Notes under the pieces: generated by a model
The model's database searches: none
What the model was told of the DNA's origin: nothing
Seen by the model: only the letters and a program-made list of their open reading frames with translations
Shown here: positions 12,004 through 62,567 of the stretch, piece by piece
Numbering within the stretch: position 1 is the stretch's first letter
Layout of the letters: the number at the start of each line of letters is the position of its first letter
Made by a program: the position numbers and the translations under genes
DNA from: a phage
Sequence record: OZ335963.1
Length of the DNA: 64,000 nucleotides
Strand: one strand, 5' to 3'

Positions 12004-12506
12004 TTAAAAATATTTTTTAAAACTCATCATAACTTTATCATCAACATCATTATCAATCTGTGCTACAAGATAAGATGAAAGTTCTACTTCTTGTGGCGCG
12101 GATTGAACATTATCAGAATTAAGGTATTCACGAATCCAAGGATACGGATGTTTAACCGGAGCATCGGTAATTGGGCATGGAAGACCACACTGTTTCATAC
12201 GAGATACAGTCAAGTAATCAATAAAGTTCCACATGCTATTTGTATTTAATCCAGGAACATCGCCATCTTTAAATAAATGAACTGCCCAGTCTTTTTCTTG
12301 ACGGTTAACTTCCATGAAAATATCAACTGCTTCTTGTTCACACTCTTGGGCGATTTTAACCCATTCATCACCATCAGTGCCAAGTTGAAGTTGACGAATA
12401 ATATATTGGGTGCCTTTAAGGTGAAGCTGCTCATCACGTGCAATAAACTTCATAATCTTGGCATTACCTTCCATGATTTCCATGTTCTTATGGAAGTTGA
12501 AAGTAC
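12004..12506 (-). CDS. nrdB: ribonucleotide reductase small subunit NrdB, exon 2
   Basis: Encodes ...TFNFHKNMEIMEGNAKIMKFIARDEQLH...; joined to exon 1 it reconstitutes FYVSFAC|TFNF, cf. E. coli R2 FYVSFACSFAF. Confidence 0.75.
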
Positions 12507-13597
12507 CGTTATGTTCGATTGAGCTCGCTAATTCTCAACCCGTTCTCTTATGAACTGCTACATATTACTATGCAGACCAGACTATATCACAATCCCAGAG
12601 GGATTCTCCCCATTTCGAGTCGCTTGACCCTACGTCCGAAGACTAGTCGTTGAACCTTGCTTTGCAATTGTCGCCGTGCCATCGTTTATATGTTGATGGT
12701 GATAAATCTTTCTTATCACAATATGGACAATTCAATTGAATTCTATTTGGATTTAATTTACATCTGTCATTATGTTTTAGATAAAATCCAGGACCTTTAC
12801 CAATGTGACCGCAGAAATCACATGTGATTTCTTTTTGTGCAGGATGGGTCCCGTTCTTAACCATTTCTAATGTTTTTGCTGATGTTCTTTTCTTATGGTC
12901 TTCTGACAAGAAATGATGTGAACCGTCATTTACCCGTTTTGATTGAGTTTCTGACTGCATTTTACCACCGCAAAATACATGAGTACCTTCTTTTATAGCT
13001 GCAATATTGCGTTCTTTAACTTTTGCAATATGCTCAGCTTGTTGAAAATTATGTATACCTAATGCAACTCTATTTAAATTAGATTTACGCTGTATTTCAC
13101 CGTCTAAAAGATGAAATGTACCATTTTCTATCTTAGATTTAATAGAGGCAATATTTTTAGCTCGTACTTCAGGGATATTAAAAATCTGGATTTCTCTAGA
13201 TTTTGCGGCTTTAGAAGCTAATTCAGAAATTTCTTCAGGAGAATATTTCATTCTAAGCTTTATAGCATGACAAGCCTGGTAATCTTTTTGAGCTAAATGT
13301 ATATCATAATGTTCCTGTATAGAAAGGCACATCAAATTATCTAAATCATTATTTTCACGGTTACCGTCTTTATGATGGATTTCGTATGTTCTTCCATCAG
13401 AATCTTTAGGTATAGGTCCGTTAGCATCTATCCAAATTTTTCTATAGTTCAATTGTGCATCCTCTTAAAAGTATAATCATATTTATATTATACTAATTAA
13501 AGGTGCAAGCAAAACCTTGGCTGCTAGTTTTCCTATAAAGGACTTTCCAGCAATTAAAGGAGTTTTCGATAAACGTTACCGTTTAAAGGCGCATTTT
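12507..13597 (-). mobile_element. group I self-splicing intron in nrdB (~1091 nt) carrying a homing-endonuclease ORF
   Basis: NrdB frame is broken by stop codons right after FYVSFA and resumes ~1.1 kb later; proposed exon 1 ends in U and intron ends in G. Exact splice sites are inferred. Confidence 0.7.
12643..13452 (-). CDS. I-TevIII: intron-encoded HNH homing endonuclease, full length 269 aa (I-TevIII-like)
   Basis: HNH motif EIHHKDGNRENNDLDNLMCLSIQEHYDIH plus C-terminal Cys clusters (CDFCGH...CPYCDKK); lies wholly inside the nrdB intron, with its own AAGAGG SD. Confidence 0.8.
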   Translation of the reverse strand: MNYRKIWIDANGPIPKDSDGRTYEIHHKDGNRENNDLDNLMCLSIQEHYDIHLAQKDYQACHAIKLRMKYSPEEISELASKAAKSREIQIFNIPEVRAKNIASIKSKIENGTFHLLDGEIQRKSNLNRVALGIHNFQQAEHIAKVKERNIAAIKEGTHVFCGGKMQSETQSKRVNDGSHHFLSEDHKKRTSAKTLEMVKNGTHPAQKEITCDFCGHIGKGPGFYLKHNDRCKLNPNRIQLNCPYCDKKDLSPSTYKRWHGDNCKARFND

Positions 13598-14273
13598 ACG
13601 CAAAAGATACATAAAAACGAATAGCTTCTAAGGCATTAATGACATGCAGGCAGAGATAAAGAGATTTCATTAGTGCTCGTTTAGCTTCGGCTTCTTGTTT
13701 AATAGCTCGATTTAAACGAAAATCAGCATCAGGAGATTCTTTAGCTAGTTCTACAAATTCTTTAGCATTTTCCCATTCACGGGTCTTCTTAAGAACATCA
13801 TCGTAATAGCGACCAATGGACTCAGCACGTTTCATAATATCTTCATCTAATACAATCTCATCAAATACCTTTGATGGATCAGTATAAAGATTTCGCATGA
13901 TATGAGTATATGAACGACTGTGAATAGTTTCACTAAAAGTCCATGTAGCAACCCATGTATCAAGACTTGGATCTGAAATTAATGACATAAGTACAGCAGA
14001 CGGTGCACGACCCTGAATGCTATCTAGAAGTGATTGATACTTCAGGTTATTAGTAAAAATATCTTGCTGATACTGAGGAAGCTTATTAAATTGTGCAGCA
14101 TCCATCATCAAGTTTACTTCTTCAGGACGCCAGAAAAATGACAACTGCTTTTCGGTTAAATCTTCAAAAACTTTATGACGTTGAATATCATAACGCGCAA
14201 TACCAAGACCTGAACCGAAGAACATGGGTTCTTTTAAAACATCAACTGGATTTGTATTAAAAACTGTGCTCAT
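13598..14273 (-). CDS. nrdB: ribonucleotide reductase small subunit NrdB, exon 1
   Basis: MSTVFNTNPVDVLKEPMFFGSGLGIARYDIQRH...EAIRFYVSFA, class Ia R2 N-terminal two-thirds. Confidence 0.8.
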
Positions 14274-20367: not shown

Positions 20368-20390
20368 CAGCAGTATTGCCGATAGTTGTA

Positions 20391-20419
20391 TAGTACCACA
20401 GTATGCTTTGGTTGTAAAC
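20391..20419 (-). promoter_or_regulatory. T4 early-type promoter (GTTTAC / TACTAT) inside a 70-bp exact repeat
   Basis: Minus sense GTTTAC-spacer-TACTAT; the same 70 bp recurs at 37317-37386. Confidence 0.5.
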
Positions 20420-20450
20420 CGTTTTGTGAAAAAAATTTTTGAAATAAAAA

Positions 20451-20469
20451 GGGGACCTCTAGGGTCCCC
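20451..20469 (-). terminator. intrinsic terminator downstream of gene 32
   Basis: GGGGACC-loop-GGUCCCC hairpin followed by U-run on minus-sense RNA, ~20 nt after gene 32 stop. Confidence 0.6.
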
Positions 20470-37284: not shown

Positions 37285-37325
37285 TTTCTAATCTCCGTAA
37301 TTCTGTATCAGTAGTTGATAGTTGT

Positions 37326-37355
37326 ATAGTACCACAGTATGCTTTGGTTGTAAAC
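37326..37355 (-). promoter_or_regulatory. T4 early-type promoter upstream of motA (second copy of 70-bp repeat)
   Basis: Minus sense GTTTAC-spacer-TACTAT; identical 70 bp at 20381-20450. Confidence 0.5.
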
Positions 37356-37387
37356 CGTTTTGTGAAAAAAATTTTTGAAATAAAAAA

Positions 37388-37407
37388 GGGAGAGCCTCGG
37401 CTCTCCC
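37388..37407 (-). terminator. intrinsic terminator (GGGAGAGCC-loop-GGCUCUCCC plus U-run)
   Basis: 9-bp GC-rich stem followed by U-run on minus-sense RNA. Confidence 0.6.
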
Positions 37408-40679: not shown

Positions 40680-40943
40680 TCATAGTTCAATCTCAGCGAT
40701 TTTCATTTCATTACTATTAATAGCCGCTTTAAGACTATCTGAAAGAATTACATCCCAGTGGTCATTCATATGACCATTAACTAAGCGTGTAATTTCTTCG
40801 GGAGTTGAAAAATAAGGCGTATCAGACTCCCAGTGTGATAATCCCAAACGAGTATAAATCATGCCTTCATCATCGCTAGAATATTCAACTGACACAAACT
40901 CATCAGTTATTTTATGTTTAGCGTAATAAAATTTAAATTTCAT
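40680..40943 (-). CDS. hypothetical protein, 87 aa
   Basis: ORF with early-promoter-like sequence upstream (40950-41015). Confidence 0.45.
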   Translation of the reverse strand: MKFKFYYAKHKITDEFVSVEYSSDDEGMIYTRLGLSHWESDTPYFSTPEEITRLVNGHMNDHWDVILSDSLKAAINSNEMKIAEIEL

Positions 40944-54353: not shown

Positions 54354-54956
54354 TTATAGATTAAATCCTTCAAAGTCAAGAGTATAGATAGTGTATGTTG
54401 AATACTTTTTATACTCGTATCTATCCGCAATTCTAAATACACTTCCAGCTGGTATCATTACTTCTTGTTCATCTGAAACTAATTCCATATTACGATAGCG
54501 ATGGCTATCTGGAAACTTAAAACTCGGGCTATATTCTTTACAACGTAGAGCTTTTATAGCATACTCCTGGAAATTAAATACCATAGGAGCTTTGAATTCA
54601 AAAATAACTTGTGTGTTGTATTCTAATCCAGAAGCAAAATGTAGAGCTATATTTTTATCATATGAAGCTGATACTACTTTATCAAATGTAATAATATCAA
54701 TTCCTTGATTTAACACCTGCTTAGTCTCGACTGGAACACCTCTCCAAAGAGGTTTATCGTTTGGAACCAAACGAGATTTGATTATTTCATTTAACCAAGA
54801 ATGATCGTCTGGCTTATTAGTAATACAATGAATTAAAAGTTCAATTTCGGATAAATTAAATCCTTCAGAAAGTAATTCTTCACGAATAGAAGCACGCACC
54901 GATGCATCCATTGATTTGATTTTAAAATCTTTTAATTGCATTGCTGAATATTTCAT
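54354..54956 (-). CDS. modA: ADP-ribosyltransferase ModA, 200 aa
   Basis: 200-aa ORF, first of a tandem pair of related proteins; position as in T4. Confidence 0.7.
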   Translation of the reverse strand: MKYSAMQLKDFKIKSMDASVRASIREELLSEGFNLSEIELLIHCITNKPDDHSWLNEIIKSRLVPNDKPLWRGVPVETKQVLNQGIDIITFDKVVSASYDKNIALHFASGLEYNTQVIFEFKAPMVFNFQEYAIKALRCKEYSPSFKFPDSHRYRNMELVSDEQEVMIPAGSVFRIADRYEYKKYSTYTIYTLDFEGFNL

Positions 54957-55576
54957 TCAACTACCTCAATATCATACACTTTAAATGTTCCAAATGAATC
55001 GTGTAATTTTTCTTTTGAAATAGAAGTTATTTTATACTTTCCAATTGGAATCATCCATTCTTGTTCACGTACAATCATCATTAAGTTATCAGTACGTTCT
55101 GAATCTAATCCATCAGTATCTTCATATGTATACTTAAACTCAGTGTTAGGAGAAGAAAGTATAATATCGCTGATATGGTCAGAATAATTAAAAGCTTTAT
55201 CAGTTTTTAAGCGAAATATTATTTCAGTGGAATATTCAACATAAGAAAAACCGCATGCTGTGTGCAAACTAGTAGTAAATGAATCTACTCTGTTCGTTGA
55301 AAACACTTCTCCAGCTTGTAAATCTTTAATGAGTTCTTTTGTCGATTTTGATATACCACGATATAGCTGATAAGGCGATTTAGTTAAATGCTTTTTAACG
55401 ATTTTATTCAACTGCCGATGAAGAGCTTCATTCTTTTTGGCTTCCATACATTGCCAAAGAACTGACTGTTCAAAGTCAGTAAATTTTTCACAGACCTTTT
55501 TATACATATCATATTGAAAATCGACACTTTCAGCTTTTATAGATAACTGTTCAACATCTGCTAGATTAATAATCAT
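54953..55576 (-). CDS. modB: ADP-ribosyltransferase ModB, ~207 aa
   Basis: Second ADP-ribosyltransferase paralog; GGAGG SD 6 nt before the ATG at 55576. Confidence 0.7.
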   Translation of the reverse strand: MIINLADVEQLSIKAESVDFQYDMYKKVCEKFTDFEQSVLWQCMEAKKNEALHRQLNKIVKKHLTKSPYQLYRGISKSTKELIKDLQAGEVFSTNRVDSFTTSLHTACGFSYVEYSTEIIFRLKTDKAFNYSDHISDIILSSPNTEFKYTYEDTDGLDSERTDNLMMIVREQEWMIPIGKYKITSISKEKLHDSFGTFKVYDIEVVE

Positions 55577-55643
55577 GATAGCCTCCATATACTTCAGAAG
55601 CTATCATATCATTGTTAGGAAGGAAAGTAAACAACTTTTTGAA

Positions 55644-56561
55644 TTATTTTGCCCAGGGAGCCCAGGGCGGAGGGTCAAGATGGTATGAAGCTAGTTCTTC
55701 TAGAAGAGCATCTGGGGCTTCAATTCCATAATTCTGTAATACTATACGGTACTCTTTCTTATAATCACTAGAATCATTCTGGATATTCGTAGAATGATTA
55801 TCTTCTAACATCTCAAATAAATCCATATTAATTCCTAGCGATAAAAAACCAAAATAACGATTAGCTTCAATAATCTTTCTTTCTTCTTCAGACATTCTCC
55901 AGCGTAGTCCAACATCAAAATGAGCCCAGACCATCTTAACAAATGCATTTATATCTTTAATATCTTCAATAATGAATGATTTACTTTTAGAAGGTTGACT
56001 CGCTAATTTAACTTTATCGTCTTCAAACAGGTCAAAAAGACCATATTCATGATTATCTTCTAACATCTCAAATAAATCCATATTAATTCCTAGCGATAAA
56101 AAACCAAAATAACGATTAGCTTCAATAATCTTTCTTTCTTCTTCAGACATTCTCCAGCGTAGTCCAACATCAAAATGAGCCCAGACCATCTTAACAAATG
56201 CATTTATATCTTTAATATCTTCAATAATGAATGATTTACTTTTAGAAGGTTGACTCGCTAATTTAACTTTATCGTCTTCAAACAGGTCAAAAAGACCATA
56301 TTCATGGGCTCTTTTATAGCCTTTAATAGTTAAAGCTTCAGAAGAAGAAAAAGGTGAATCAGTATTCTGCAAAATATCTTCAGTATGCTTTATAATTAGA
56401 ATAACATTTTCTGGATATTTTCTTTCTTTTATATCTTTAATTAAAAGATCCGGATTTTCTGCTAAAGGAATAATTAATGAGCACTTTTTATCAAGTGTAT
56501 TTACCGATTTACCTTCTTTGGACATAAATTCTATTGAATAATGTTTTGCTACTTCAATCAT
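55644..56561 (-). CDS. hypothetical protein, 305 aa, containing an exact 85-aa tandem duplication
   Basis: Residues [24 protein letters not shown]...FEMLEDNH occur twice in a row, encoded by a perfect 255-bp direct repeat. Confidence 0.6.
55794..56306. repeat. perfect tandem direct repeat, 2 x 255 bp
   Basis: 55794-56048 is identical to 56049-56303 (plus 3 nt into a third period); in-frame within the 305-aa ORF. Confidence 0.9.
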
Positions 56562-56714
56562 GTGATTTCCTCTTGCCTACTAACGGACCATCAGGAATTT
56601 TGTTTTCCTGGATATATTTCTCATTTTCTTCCATCATTTTACTGCCAATTTTAAGAAGCAAATCCATTGCTTCATTTGCTTTAGCCTTGGCCTCTTCTAG
56701 CGTCATATCTCTGT

Positions 56715-56918
56715 TCACGATTTATCCCCATAGATGTCTCTCATCAATTTAAGCGCTGAGCGTTCTAATTTCTTTTCTTTCTCAGCACCAATCATTGATT
56801 TCATCCATTCTTCTGATTCGTTCTGCATTTCTTTATTTGCTTGTTCAACCCAACCATCATCAATATACATTGAGTTTGGTCTATTGAACCATTCAAGCAT
56901 TTTCTTCAGAACTTTCAT
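56715..56918 (-). CDS. hypothetical protein, 67 aa
   Basis: ORF. Confidence 0.4.
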
Positions 56919-57390
56919 TTGTTTTACCTAAAACAACAGTAGGAGCATCGTCAAATTTATGAATTTTTAGCAAATTTGGATGTAAAATATTCCACACAGA
57001 AGAAATAAAGTATGATAAAGCATCTTCACTTGCAATTATAAATTTATTTCCTTTATCTATTTTCCAACTATATACTGAATCATACGAATAAAAAGATAAA
57101 GGTTTATCATTATATTGTTCTGCGCTAACATTAATGTATTCTGATTTAGTAAATGCTTCAATTGCTCTAAACGGAATATTTGGTACAGTTTCAATAATAC
57201 CAATCTTTTTAAGTTTTATTTCAGCATCTTCTGGAACTGGCATTGAAACGAAATTTTCTACGAGATACATTGGGTCACAATAACCCTTATCAATCATTAC
57301 TGCTACGGTAATTGGAACGTCTTTAGCAAACGACAAACTATTACTGCTAATATACATTTCAAACAAAATCGCTTCCATAATTTTCCTCAA
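56893..57390 (-). CDS. hypothetical protein, 165 aa
   Basis: ORF. Confidence 0.5.
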
Positions 57391-62282: not shown

Positions 62283-62567
62283 CTATTTTACTAGCATCAA
62301 TAACTGTTTCTCTAACTTAATAATTTTACGAAAGTATCTTTTGCATTGACGAATCTGCCGCTTCGTAGGGCGCACAGCAAACTTAATAAATTCCACTCGA
62401 CCAAATGGAGGGCTTTCTTCTGATGGAATATCTAACACCAATTCCCACGTATCCGCAATAAGTGCCTTGAATTGAGTATTTTTCCTGACGTTATACGGAG
62501 TAGGTTTAAATAAAACAATATGCATATTACCCTCGGCAATCCACTTCACATACTTTCTTGTCATCAA
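62283..62567 (-). CDS. hypothetical protein, 94 aa
   Basis: ORF downstream of dmd. Confidence 0.45.
   Translation of the reverse strand: MMTRKYVKWIAEGNMHIVLFKPTPYNVRKNTQFKALIADTWELVLDIPSEESPPFGRVEFIKFAVRPTKRQIRQCKRYFRKIIKLEKQLLMLVK

What the first reader, a model, noticed from the sequence alone, without database searches (positions are those of the whole stretch)
55794..56306. Perfect 255-bp in-frame tandem duplication inside an early gene
Positions 55794-56048 and 56049-56303 are identical base for base, so the 305-aa ORF carries two copies of an 85-residue segment. Zero divergence implies a very recent duplication or an assembly artefact; the unduplicated protein would be about 220 aa. 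Such repeats are recombination-prone and could mark a gene under rapid change.
Basis: seen in the sequence. Interest (0 to 1): 0.6.

Follow-up and report, generated by a model that had tools for sequence, protein, structure and literature searches.

The report
Tandem duplication in fused phage genes
A T4-like phage genome carries a perfect 255-base head-to-tail duplication across the boundary of two small early genes (modA.3 and modA.2) that a one-base insertion has fused into one 305-codon frame; it is either a very recent duplication of a kind well known in T4 or an untrimmed assembly overlap, and is of modest interest either way.

Summary
Window 55794-56048 and 56049-56303 are identical, with 3 further matching bases, and this is the only large tandem repeat in the window. 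The window is a Tequatrovirus (T4-like) genome, 97-99% identical to its closest public relatives.

In about 500 related phages the locus holds two genes in different frames: modA.3 (156-160 aa, a paralogue of Mrh, Pfam PF24070) and modA.2 (60 aa). Here an extra T in a T5 run at the 3' end of modA.3 fuses them. The insertion is present in both copies and in no other record searched. The duplication runs from His86 of ModA.3 to His11 of ModA.2, and the new junction keeps one copy of a 3-bp microhomology (CAT).

About 110 other genes in the window are intact, so the assembly is not generally error-prone.

My best reading (about 0.55) is a genuine, very recent microhomology-mediated tandem duplication, as documented for T4, probably neutral. 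The main rival (about 0.38) is an untrimmed contig overlap. Only reads or PCR can decide. Structure prediction was uninformative. Interest is low.

The parts
55644..56561 (-). 305-aa fused and partly duplicated ORF. Layout: ModA.3 residues 1-154, linker LSLGIN, ModA.2 residues 1-11, ModA.3 residues 87-154, linker LSLGIN, ModA.2 residues 1-60.
   Evidence: ORF list. Pfam PF24070 T4_MRH matches residues 5-147, E 2.5e-49. phrog_1234 (Mrh) matches residues 3-154 and phrog_1647 (ModA.2) matches residues 246-305. Translations compared with PP01 ModA.3 and ModA.2.
55794..56048 (.). Copy 1 of the 255-bp unit. It is distal in the coding direction and encodes ORF residues 172-256.
56049..56303 (.). Copy 2 of the 255-bp unit. 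It is proximal in the coding direction and encodes ORF residues 87-171.
56049..56051 (.). Novel junction. It holds a single copy of the 3-bp microhomology ATG (+ strand), which is CAT (His) on the coding strand. The two parental copies lie at 55794-55796 (His11 of ModA.2) and 56304-56306 (His86 of ModA.3).
   Evidence: Comparison of the two parental sites with the junction; they share nothing beyond ATG. Both parental sites are present in PP01.
55843..55848 (-). A6 run on the + strand (T6 on the coding strand), in copy 1. Relatives have 5 bases here. The extra base shifts the modA.3 frame into the modA.2 frame, so the modA.3 stop is bypassed.
   Evidence: Alignment with PP01 and Killian. Run-length census of 5 relatives. 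None of 481 phage records matches this 76-nt segment at 100%.
56098..56103 (-). The same A6/T6 run in copy 2.
55824..55826 (-). Original start codon of modA.2, now internal as ORF residue 246, with its AGGA ribosome-binding site upstream. A second copy of this start lies at 56079-56081 (residue 161).
   Evidence: Killian ModA.2 residues 1-60 map to window 55826-55647 at 100% identity. Coding-strand sequence.
54953..55588 (-). modB (ADP-ribosyltransferase), the downstream neighbour. It is intact.
56554..56718 (-). modA.4, the upstream neighbour. It is intact.
56893..57390 (-). mrh, the paralogue of modA.3 (about 25% identity, same Pfam family). It is intact.

Best explanation
This is a genuine, very recent tandem duplication in a T4-like phage genome.

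Step 1 (shown): in this lineage an extra T in a T5 run, three codons before the modA.3 stop, shifted the frame. ModA.3 now reads through a 6-residue linker (LSLGIN) into ModA.2, giving a 220-aa fusion.

Step 2 (order inferred from the insertion being in both copies): illegitimate recombination or replication slippage occurred between two CAT triplets 255 bp apart, the codon for His86 of ModA.3 and the codon for His11 of ModA.2. This duplicated the segment head to tail and left one CAT at the new junction. Because 255 is divisible by 3 and the two genes were already in one frame, the result is a single 305-aa ORF.

Consequence (inferred): the product keeps a complete Mrh-like domain and a complete ModA.2 at its ends, with a partial domain repeat between them. 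ModA.2 can probably still be made from its own ribosome-binding site and ATG. The change is most likely neutral or mildly deleterious in these dispensable early genes. It would be transient, because T4's recombination machinery should collapse a 255-bp perfect repeat.
For: - The repeat is exact and head to tail, and the junction keeps one copy of a 3-bp microhomology that is present at both parental sites. This is the signature reported for T4 tandem duplications and amplifications (PMC9391042).
- An arbitrary 255-bp block copied in this genome would show 3 or more bp of such extension in only about 2-8% of cases.
- The length is a multiple of 3.
- About 110 other genes in the window map to phage Killian proteins in a single frame. 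The window holds 74 A/T runs of 6 or more bases without any other coding frameshift. The assembly therefore looks accurate, and the T6 is probably real.
- The T6 is present in both copies, which fits insertion first and duplication second.
- Neither flank is a 100% match to another known phage, so nothing points to a chimeric join of two strains.
Against: - No reads are available, so physical existence is unproven.
- Perfect identity is exactly what an untrimmed contig overlap gives.
- The duplication and the fusion occur in no other record: about 500 Tequatrovirus genomes, 98 protein clusters, IMG/VR, JGI metagenomes, GTDB genomes and E. coli RefSeq.
- 3 bp is at the short end of the 2-10 bp range reported for T4, where 6-10 bp is typical.
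- 255 equals the largest k-mer some assemblers allow. This is from memory and was not tested.
- A 255-bp perfect repeat should be unstable in T4 (established knowledge, not tested here).
- Nothing explains why the duplication covers the only frame-changing private mutation in the window.
Confidence: 0.55

Rival explanations
1. This is an assembly or processing artefact. T4-like genomes are circularly permuted and assemble as circles. A contig whose two ends overlap by 255 bp, if rotated or joined without trimming (or if the window wraps across the record ends), yields exactly a perfect internal tandem repeat. Two overlapping contigs joined end to end would do the same. Under this reading the T6 fusion may still be real, and the true ORF would be 220 aa.
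For: - The two copies show zero divergence.
- The duplication is unique among all public relatives.
- The junction sequence is absent from every collection searched.
- 255 (2^8 - 1) is the upper k-mer limit of some de Bruijn assemblers (memory, not tested).
- The window runs straight through the conventional T4 origin at the rIIA/rIIB boundary near 43 kb. The record therefore has a non-standard start and may have been rotated.
Against: - A 3-bp extension or microhomology is expected in only about 2-8% of arbitrary overlaps.
- The chance that a random break falls on the single frame-changing private mutation of the window is about 0.4%.
- The rest of the window is clean.
- Common default k values (127 or below, or 141) do not give 255 (memory).
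- If the record has the assembler's arbitrary start, an overlap would sit at the record ends, not inside it.
Confidence: 0.38
2. The duplication is real and is kept by selection (a sub-case of the best explanation). Under this reading the frameshift fusion and the duplication are successive adaptive hits in the modA.3-modA.2 locus. Examples would be escape from a host defence that senses one of these early proteins, or a gain of function of the fused, extended protein.
For: - Two rare private events lie in the same 255 bp, while about 110 other genes are untouched.
- The reading frame is preserved.
- T4 is known to adapt to host defence by tandem amplification (PMC9391042; PMC13096335 listed).
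Against: - Known adaptive cases amplify whole genes to raise dosage. This event copies a partial domain.
- Private substitutions are not in excess in the locus.
- ModA.3 is strongly conserved in length and sequence elsewhere.
- No function or host interaction is known for ModA.2 or ModA.3.
- The structure models are too poor to show a foldable repeat.
Confidence: 0.08
3. The T5 run in wild-type phages (GGU UUU UAU) is a natural low-level -1 frameshift site that already makes some ModA.3-ModA.2 fusion protein. This genome has merely hard-wired that product.
For: - tRNA-Phe can re-pair with UUU after slipping back one base.
- The modA.2 frame is open for the 6 codons between the run and the modA.2 ATG.
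- The 8-nt spacing and the relative frame of the two genes are conserved in all 9 annotated relatives fetched.
Against: - The site is not a canonical X XXY YYZ heptamer.
- No stimulatory structure was looked for or seen.
- Six open codons are easily chance.
- No fused protein appears among 98 clusters.
- There is no experimental support.
Confidence: 0.03

Closest known systems
Microhomology-mediated tandem duplications and segmental amplifications of phage T4. Examples are rII duplications, Hp17 amplifications of genes 16-18, and dmd-tifA amplification under toxIN selection (Srikant, Guegler and Laub 2022, PMC9391042, and the references it cites to Kumagai 1993 and Wu 1991).
   Same: The same phage genus, a head-to-tail arrangement, and a novel junction that retains one copy of a short homology flanking the unit in the parent. 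The copies are perfectly identical, which implies a recent origin.
   Different: This case has only two copies of 255 bp and is intragenic, spanning a gene boundary rather than covering whole genes. Its microhomology is 3 bp, against the typical 6-10 bp. No selective agent is known, no compensating deletion was seen, and it is not experimentally verified.
Untrimmed terminal overlap of a circular or circularly permuted genome assembly (false direct terminal repeat)
   Same: A perfect repeat of a few hundred bases or fewer, unique to one record, with no divergence between the copies.
   Different: Such overlaps normally sit at the record ends and have the assembler's k-mer length. This repeat is internal to the window, has a 3-bp microhomology, is a multiple of 3, and covers a private frameshift.
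T4 Mrh (RpoH-modulating protein) family, Pfam PF24070 / phrog_1234
   Same: The N-terminal 154 residues of the ORF match the family profile end to end. The mrh paralogue lies 330 bp upstream.
   Different: ModA.3 is only about 25% identical to Mrh and has no tested function. Here it is fused to ModA.2 and carries a repeat of its C-terminal half.
Gene 'accordions' in poxviruses (tandem amplification under host-factor selection)
   Same: The concept is shared: transient tandem copy-number gain in a large dsDNA virus.
   Different: Those events amplify whole genes many-fold under a defined selection. Here there is a single partial duplication with no evidence of selection.

Membership tests
T4-type microhomology-mediated tandem duplication | Direct head-to-tail repeat of a segment that is single-copy in relatives | tested here: met
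   The best relatives span 1145 bp where the window has 1401 bp. The collapsed window aligns colinearly with PP01.
T4-type microhomology-mediated tandem duplication | A short homology present at both parental end points, with one copy retained at the novel junction | tested here: met
   ATG/CAT lies at 55794-96 and 56304-06, with one copy at 56049-51. It is only 3 bp, and chance gives this in 2-8% of cases.
T4-type microhomology-mediated tandem duplication | The duplication exists in the packaged phage DNA (spanning reads, PCR) | not testable with these tools
   No reads are available. The source record was not found in any collection.
Assembly overlap artefact | The repeat coincides with contig ends or a rotation point, and its length equals the assembler's overlap | not testable with these tools
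   The record's coordinates and assembly method are unknown. 255 is not a common default k (memory).
Assembly overlap artefact | Read depth and spanning reads support one copy only | not testable with these tools
   No reads.
Pfam PF24070 T4_MRH-like | Full-length profile match above the gathering score | tested here: met
   167.2 bits against a cut-off of 24.4, residues 5-147 on profile positions 1-143 of 144. A second partial stretch comes from the repeat. phrog_1234 matches with E 4.9e-70.
Pfam PF24070 T4_MRH-like | Mrh function (modulation of late transcription in rpoH hosts) | not testable with these tools
   This is known only for Mrh itself (PMC8076793). ModA.3 is untested.
ModA.2 (phrog_1647) | Full-length profile match | tested here: met
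   Residues 246-305 match profile positions 1-62 of 62, E 4e-32. They are 100% identical to Killian ModA.2.
Programmed -1 ribosomal frameshift site | Canonical slippery heptamer X XXY YYZ with a downstream stimulator | tested here: not met
   The wild-type sequence U GGU UUU UAU is not a canonical heptamer (sequence). No stimulator was examined.

The most novel reading that the evidence does not exclude
The frameshift fusion of ModA.3 to ModA.2 and the later in-frame partial duplication are successive selected steps that build a new multi-module early protein, or disable a defence trigger, in a wild T4-like phage. That would be a caught-in-the-act example of gene fusion plus internal duplication as a route to new phage proteins, held against T4's strong tendency to collapse repeats.
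Probability: 0.08. Interest if true: 0.5.

Novelty: new member of a known kind. Interest (0 to 1): 0.2.

Why it matters
If real, this is a natural snapshot of the microhomology-driven duplication process that T4-like phages use to remodel their genomes. Here it acts on a gene boundary that a frameshift had already fused, so it shows how two small accessory genes can become one larger modular ORF in two steps.

It would also give a handle on two conserved but uncharacterised early genes next to the ModA/ModB ADP-ribosyltransferases and Mrh.

If it is an artefact, the practical value is curation. The record would need a 255-bp trim, and the 305-aa 'protein' should not enter databases. In both cases annotators should note that the underlying 220-aa ORF is a private fusion of modA.3 and modA.2.

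Tried and rejected
- Finding the source or an independent copy. I tried an exact look-up of the 305-aa protein, the junction 48-mer in IMG/VR, the T6 37-mer in IMG/VR, JGI metagenomes and GTDB genomes, and megablast against complete E. coli genomes. All found nothing, so no independent confirmation or refutation was possible.
- Structure prediction of the duplicated form against the single form. AlphaFold2 gave mean pLDDT 41.4 for the 305-aa ORF and 46.6 for a native 156-aa ModA.3. The family is too narrow for a deep alignment, with only 9 representatives at 50% identity among 1.84 billion proteins. I ran no fold search because the models are unreliable, so whether residues 87-154 form an autonomous subdomain remains unknown.
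- Sequence search of solved structures found no match.
- Generally error-prone assembly: rejected. About 110 genes are in frame relative to Killian, despite 74 A/T runs of 6 or more bases in the window.
- Locally accelerated evolution: rejected. 14 private positions are spread evenly over 4.2 kb, and only the insertion lies inside the unit.
- Chimeric join of two known phages: not supported. The flanks are 97.5-98.9% identical to different relatives, which is ordinary mosaicism, and there is no 100% donor.
- Literature search for modA.2 and modA.3 returned only irrelevant papers.
- The promoter and terminator scan of the locus showed nothing specific to the repeat.

Full report
**Observation.** Window 55794-56048 and 56049-56303 are identical base for base. 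The identity extends 3 bp further (ATG at 56304-56306) and 0 bp to the left. Tandem Repeats Finder gives 55794-56306, period 255, 2.0 copies and 100% matches, and nothing comparable exists elsewhere in the 64 kb. The repeat lies in a 305-aa ORF on the minus strand (55644-56561), whose residues 87-171 and 172-256 are the same 85-residue unit.

**Context.** The window is a Tequatrovirus (T4-like) genome.
- The 1.4 kb around the repeat matches 538 phage records, and the best are 98.0-98.6% identical (PP01, SH-2, CrRp10 and others). Twelve kb around it reaches at most 97% (phage Killian). The source genome itself is therefore not in the collection.
- The annotated gene order in PP01 is srd, modA, modB, modA.2, modA.3, modA.4, srh, mrh, mrh.1, mrh.2, soc, all on the minus strand. 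This is the T4 early region by established T4 knowledge.
- In every top hit the match spans 1145 bp of the record against 1401 bp of the query, in two pieces. The difference is one 255-bp unit plus one base.

**What the ORF really is.**
- In PP01, modA.3 (156 aa) and modA.2 (60 aa) are separate genes, 8 nt apart and in different frames. modA.3 belongs to Pfam PF24070 T4_MRH and phrog_1234. modA.2 belongs to phrog_1647.
- I removed one copy from the window and aligned the result to PP01. The only gap is an extra A in an A-run on the + strand: A6 at 55843-55848 and again at 56098-56103, which is T6 on the coding strand. Relatives have five.
- The insertion sits three codons before the modA.3 stop. 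...NRYFGFYR* becomes ...[23 protein letters not shown]..., so ModA.3 reads through the former intergenic bases into ModA.2.
- The ORF is therefore laid out as ModA.3(1-154), LSLGIN, ModA.2(1-11), ModA.3(87-154), LSLGIN, ModA.2(1-60). The profile hits agree: PF24070 on residues 5-147 plus a second partial stretch, and phrog_1647 on residues 246-305.

**How private the two changes are.**
- A search with the 220-aa collapsed protein against 5.8 billion proteins returned 98 clusters. All were 126-160 aa long and none covered more than 71% of the query.
- None of 481 phage records matches the 76 nt around the T-run at 100%. The best are 75 of 76, with a 75-base span.
- A tblastn search with the 60-aa fusion peptide gives only two-frame, 179-nt matches at the top of 502 records.
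- The junction 48-mer and the T6 37-mer are absent from IMG/VR, JGI metagenomes and GTDB genomes. The exact protein is not on record. Complete E. coli genomes hold nothing similar.
- Both changes are therefore unique to this genome as far as public data go.

**Anatomy of the junction.** On the + strand the left parental site reads ...TTCGTAGA-ATG-ATTATC..., the right parental site reads ...CATATTC-ATG-GGCTCT..., and the novel junction reads ...CATATTC-ATG-ATTATC.... The two parental sites share nothing beyond ATG. On the coding strand these are CAT codons, His86 of ModA.3 and His11 of ModA.2. One copy of a short homology retained at the join is the signature of T4 tandem duplications and amplifications. 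Srikant et al. report 6-10 bp as typical and 2-10 bp as the range (PMC9391042). I copied an arbitrary 255-bp block at every position of this genome. An extension of 3 bp or more appeared in 2.4% of distinct events, which is about 8% when weighted by position (the weighting is my arithmetic on its counts). The microhomology is therefore modest evidence, not decisive.

**Quality of the surrounding assembly.** I translated all 116 annotated Killian CDS that correspond to the window and mapped them back.
- Apart from genes absent through ordinary mosaicism, two small C-terminal differences and a divergent tail-fibre segment, every one maps in a single frame.
- The exceptions are modA.3/modA.2 and nrdB. 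nrdB is interrupted by an insert of about 1.1 kb that resembles an intron.
- The window holds 74 A/T runs of 6 or more bases, yet no other coding frameshift.
- This argues against a homopolymer-error-prone assembly and makes the T6 more likely to be real. Because it is present in both copies, it most simply predates the duplication.

**No sign of accelerated change.** Against 14 relatives, the window has 14 private positions between 54.0 and 58.2 kb. They are evenly spread, and only the inserted A lies inside the unit. The flanks have different best relatives at 97.5-98.9%, which is ordinary Tequatrovirus mosaicism, and there is no 100% donor that would suggest a chimeric join. ModA.3 is well conserved, at 91-98% identity and always 156-160 aa. 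Two variants exist among relatives: a 12-bp indel polymorphism (KLALNLA against KLA), and one other allele with a frameshifted C-terminus in phage NiC89 (P0097).

**Function.**
- Mrh, the family founder, affects T4 late gene expression in rpoH mutant hosts and forms a very large complex in vitro (PMC8076793). ModA.3 is only about 25% identical to it and is untested. ModA.2 has no Pfam family.
- The family is tiny, with 9 representatives at 50% identity among 1.84 billion proteins. No solved structure matches.
- AlphaFold2 gave mean pLDDT 41.4 for the 305-aa ORF and 46.6 for a native 156-aa ModA.3. Both are too low to tell whether residues 87-154 form an autonomous subdomain.
- By inference, the fused protein keeps a complete Mrh-like domain and a complete ModA.2. 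The modA.2 ribosome-binding site (AGGA) and ATG survive in both copies, so free ModA.2 may still be made, together with a hybrid of about 145 aa that starts at the upstream copy.

**Verdict on mechanism.**
- Two explanations remain. The first is a genuine, very recent microhomology-mediated duplication laid over an older private frameshift fusion (about 0.55). The second is an untrimmed 255-bp overlap from circular assembly, rotation or contig joining (about 0.38).
- For the real event: the microhomology, the multiple-of-3 length, the clean assembly, and the fact that the window runs uninterrupted through the conventional T4 origin, which would fit an unrotated record whose overlap would sit at its ends.
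- For the artefact: zero divergence, uniqueness, the expected instability of a 255-bp perfect repeat in T4 (established knowledge of its high recombination rate, not tested here), and the suspicious value 255 (2^8 - 1, a k-mer ceiling in some assemblers, from memory).
- It is unexplained that the repeat covers the only frame-changing private mutation in 64 kb, which has about a 0.4% chance if the two are independent. Selection on the locus would explain it, but nothing else supports selection (about 0.08, as a sub-case of the real event).
- A natural -1 slip at the wild-type U5 run is conceivable but unsupported (about 0.03).

**Novelty and interest.** Tandem duplication at microhomology is a known behaviour of T4, and untrimmed overlaps are a known artefact. 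This is a new instance of a known kind in two dispensable genes of unknown function. A specialist would not be surprised. The useful correction is that the ORF is a frameshift fusion of two genes. Interest is about 0.2.

Noticed in passing
window 12007-14273 (minus strand); insert 12505-13598; ORF 12643-13452: The nrdB homologue is split by an insert of about 1.1 kb that carries a 269-aa HNH_3 endonuclease ORF. This looks like the T-even nrdB group I intron with a full-length I-TevIII-type homing endonuclease. Killian lacks the insert but has a free-standing endonuclease ORF between nrdA and nrdB, which the window lacks. The Rfam gathering scan found no group I intron, perhaps because the ORF splits the model.
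   Followed up: partly
window 20381-20455 and 37317-37391: A 75-bp dispersed direct repeat (74/75 identical) lies 17 kb apart, in intergenic DNA near gene 32 and near the lysozyme gene e. It contains GTGAAAAAAATTTTTGAAAT. It could act as a regulatory element and as a substrate for deletion or duplication.
   Followed up: partly
GenBank records under hits H4-H7, H14-H16 and others; L011, L012, L015, L017: ModA.2, ModA.3 and ModA.4 of many T4-like phages are annotated as 'molybdenum ABC transporter, periplasmic molybdenum-binding protein ModA'. This is a name-collision error that has propagated from the T4 gene names modA.2-modA.4.
   Followed up: no
protein P0097 (Escherichia phage NiC89, 158 aa), alignment A1: Another ModA.3 allele has a frameshifted C-terminus (…[33 protein letters not shown]). 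The C-terminal third of ModA.3 has therefore been hit by a frameshift, or by a sequencing error, in at least one other genome.
   Followed up: no
window 56000 and 56262 (inside each repeat copy); alignment A1 columns about 112-115: A 12-bp indel polymorphism exists among relatives (KLALNLA against KLA), and it is itself a small imperfect tandem repeat. The window carries the short allele, giving 156-aa-type ModA.3 rather than the 160-aa type.
   Followed up: partly
protein P0102 (1356 aa) and P0105 (1830 aa): Two very long proteins match a short N-terminal stretch of ModA.3. P0102 matches residues about 26-69 in 17 separate stretches. This is either an unrelated repeat protein or low-complexity similarity.
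   Followed up: no
window 40772-40943 and 62298-62525: Two small ORFs differ from their Killian counterparts only at the C-terminal end (57 of 60 aa and 76 of 85 aa aligned). The first is associated with 1-bp indels near the gene end. These are the only other length differences seen among about 110 genes.
   Followed up: no
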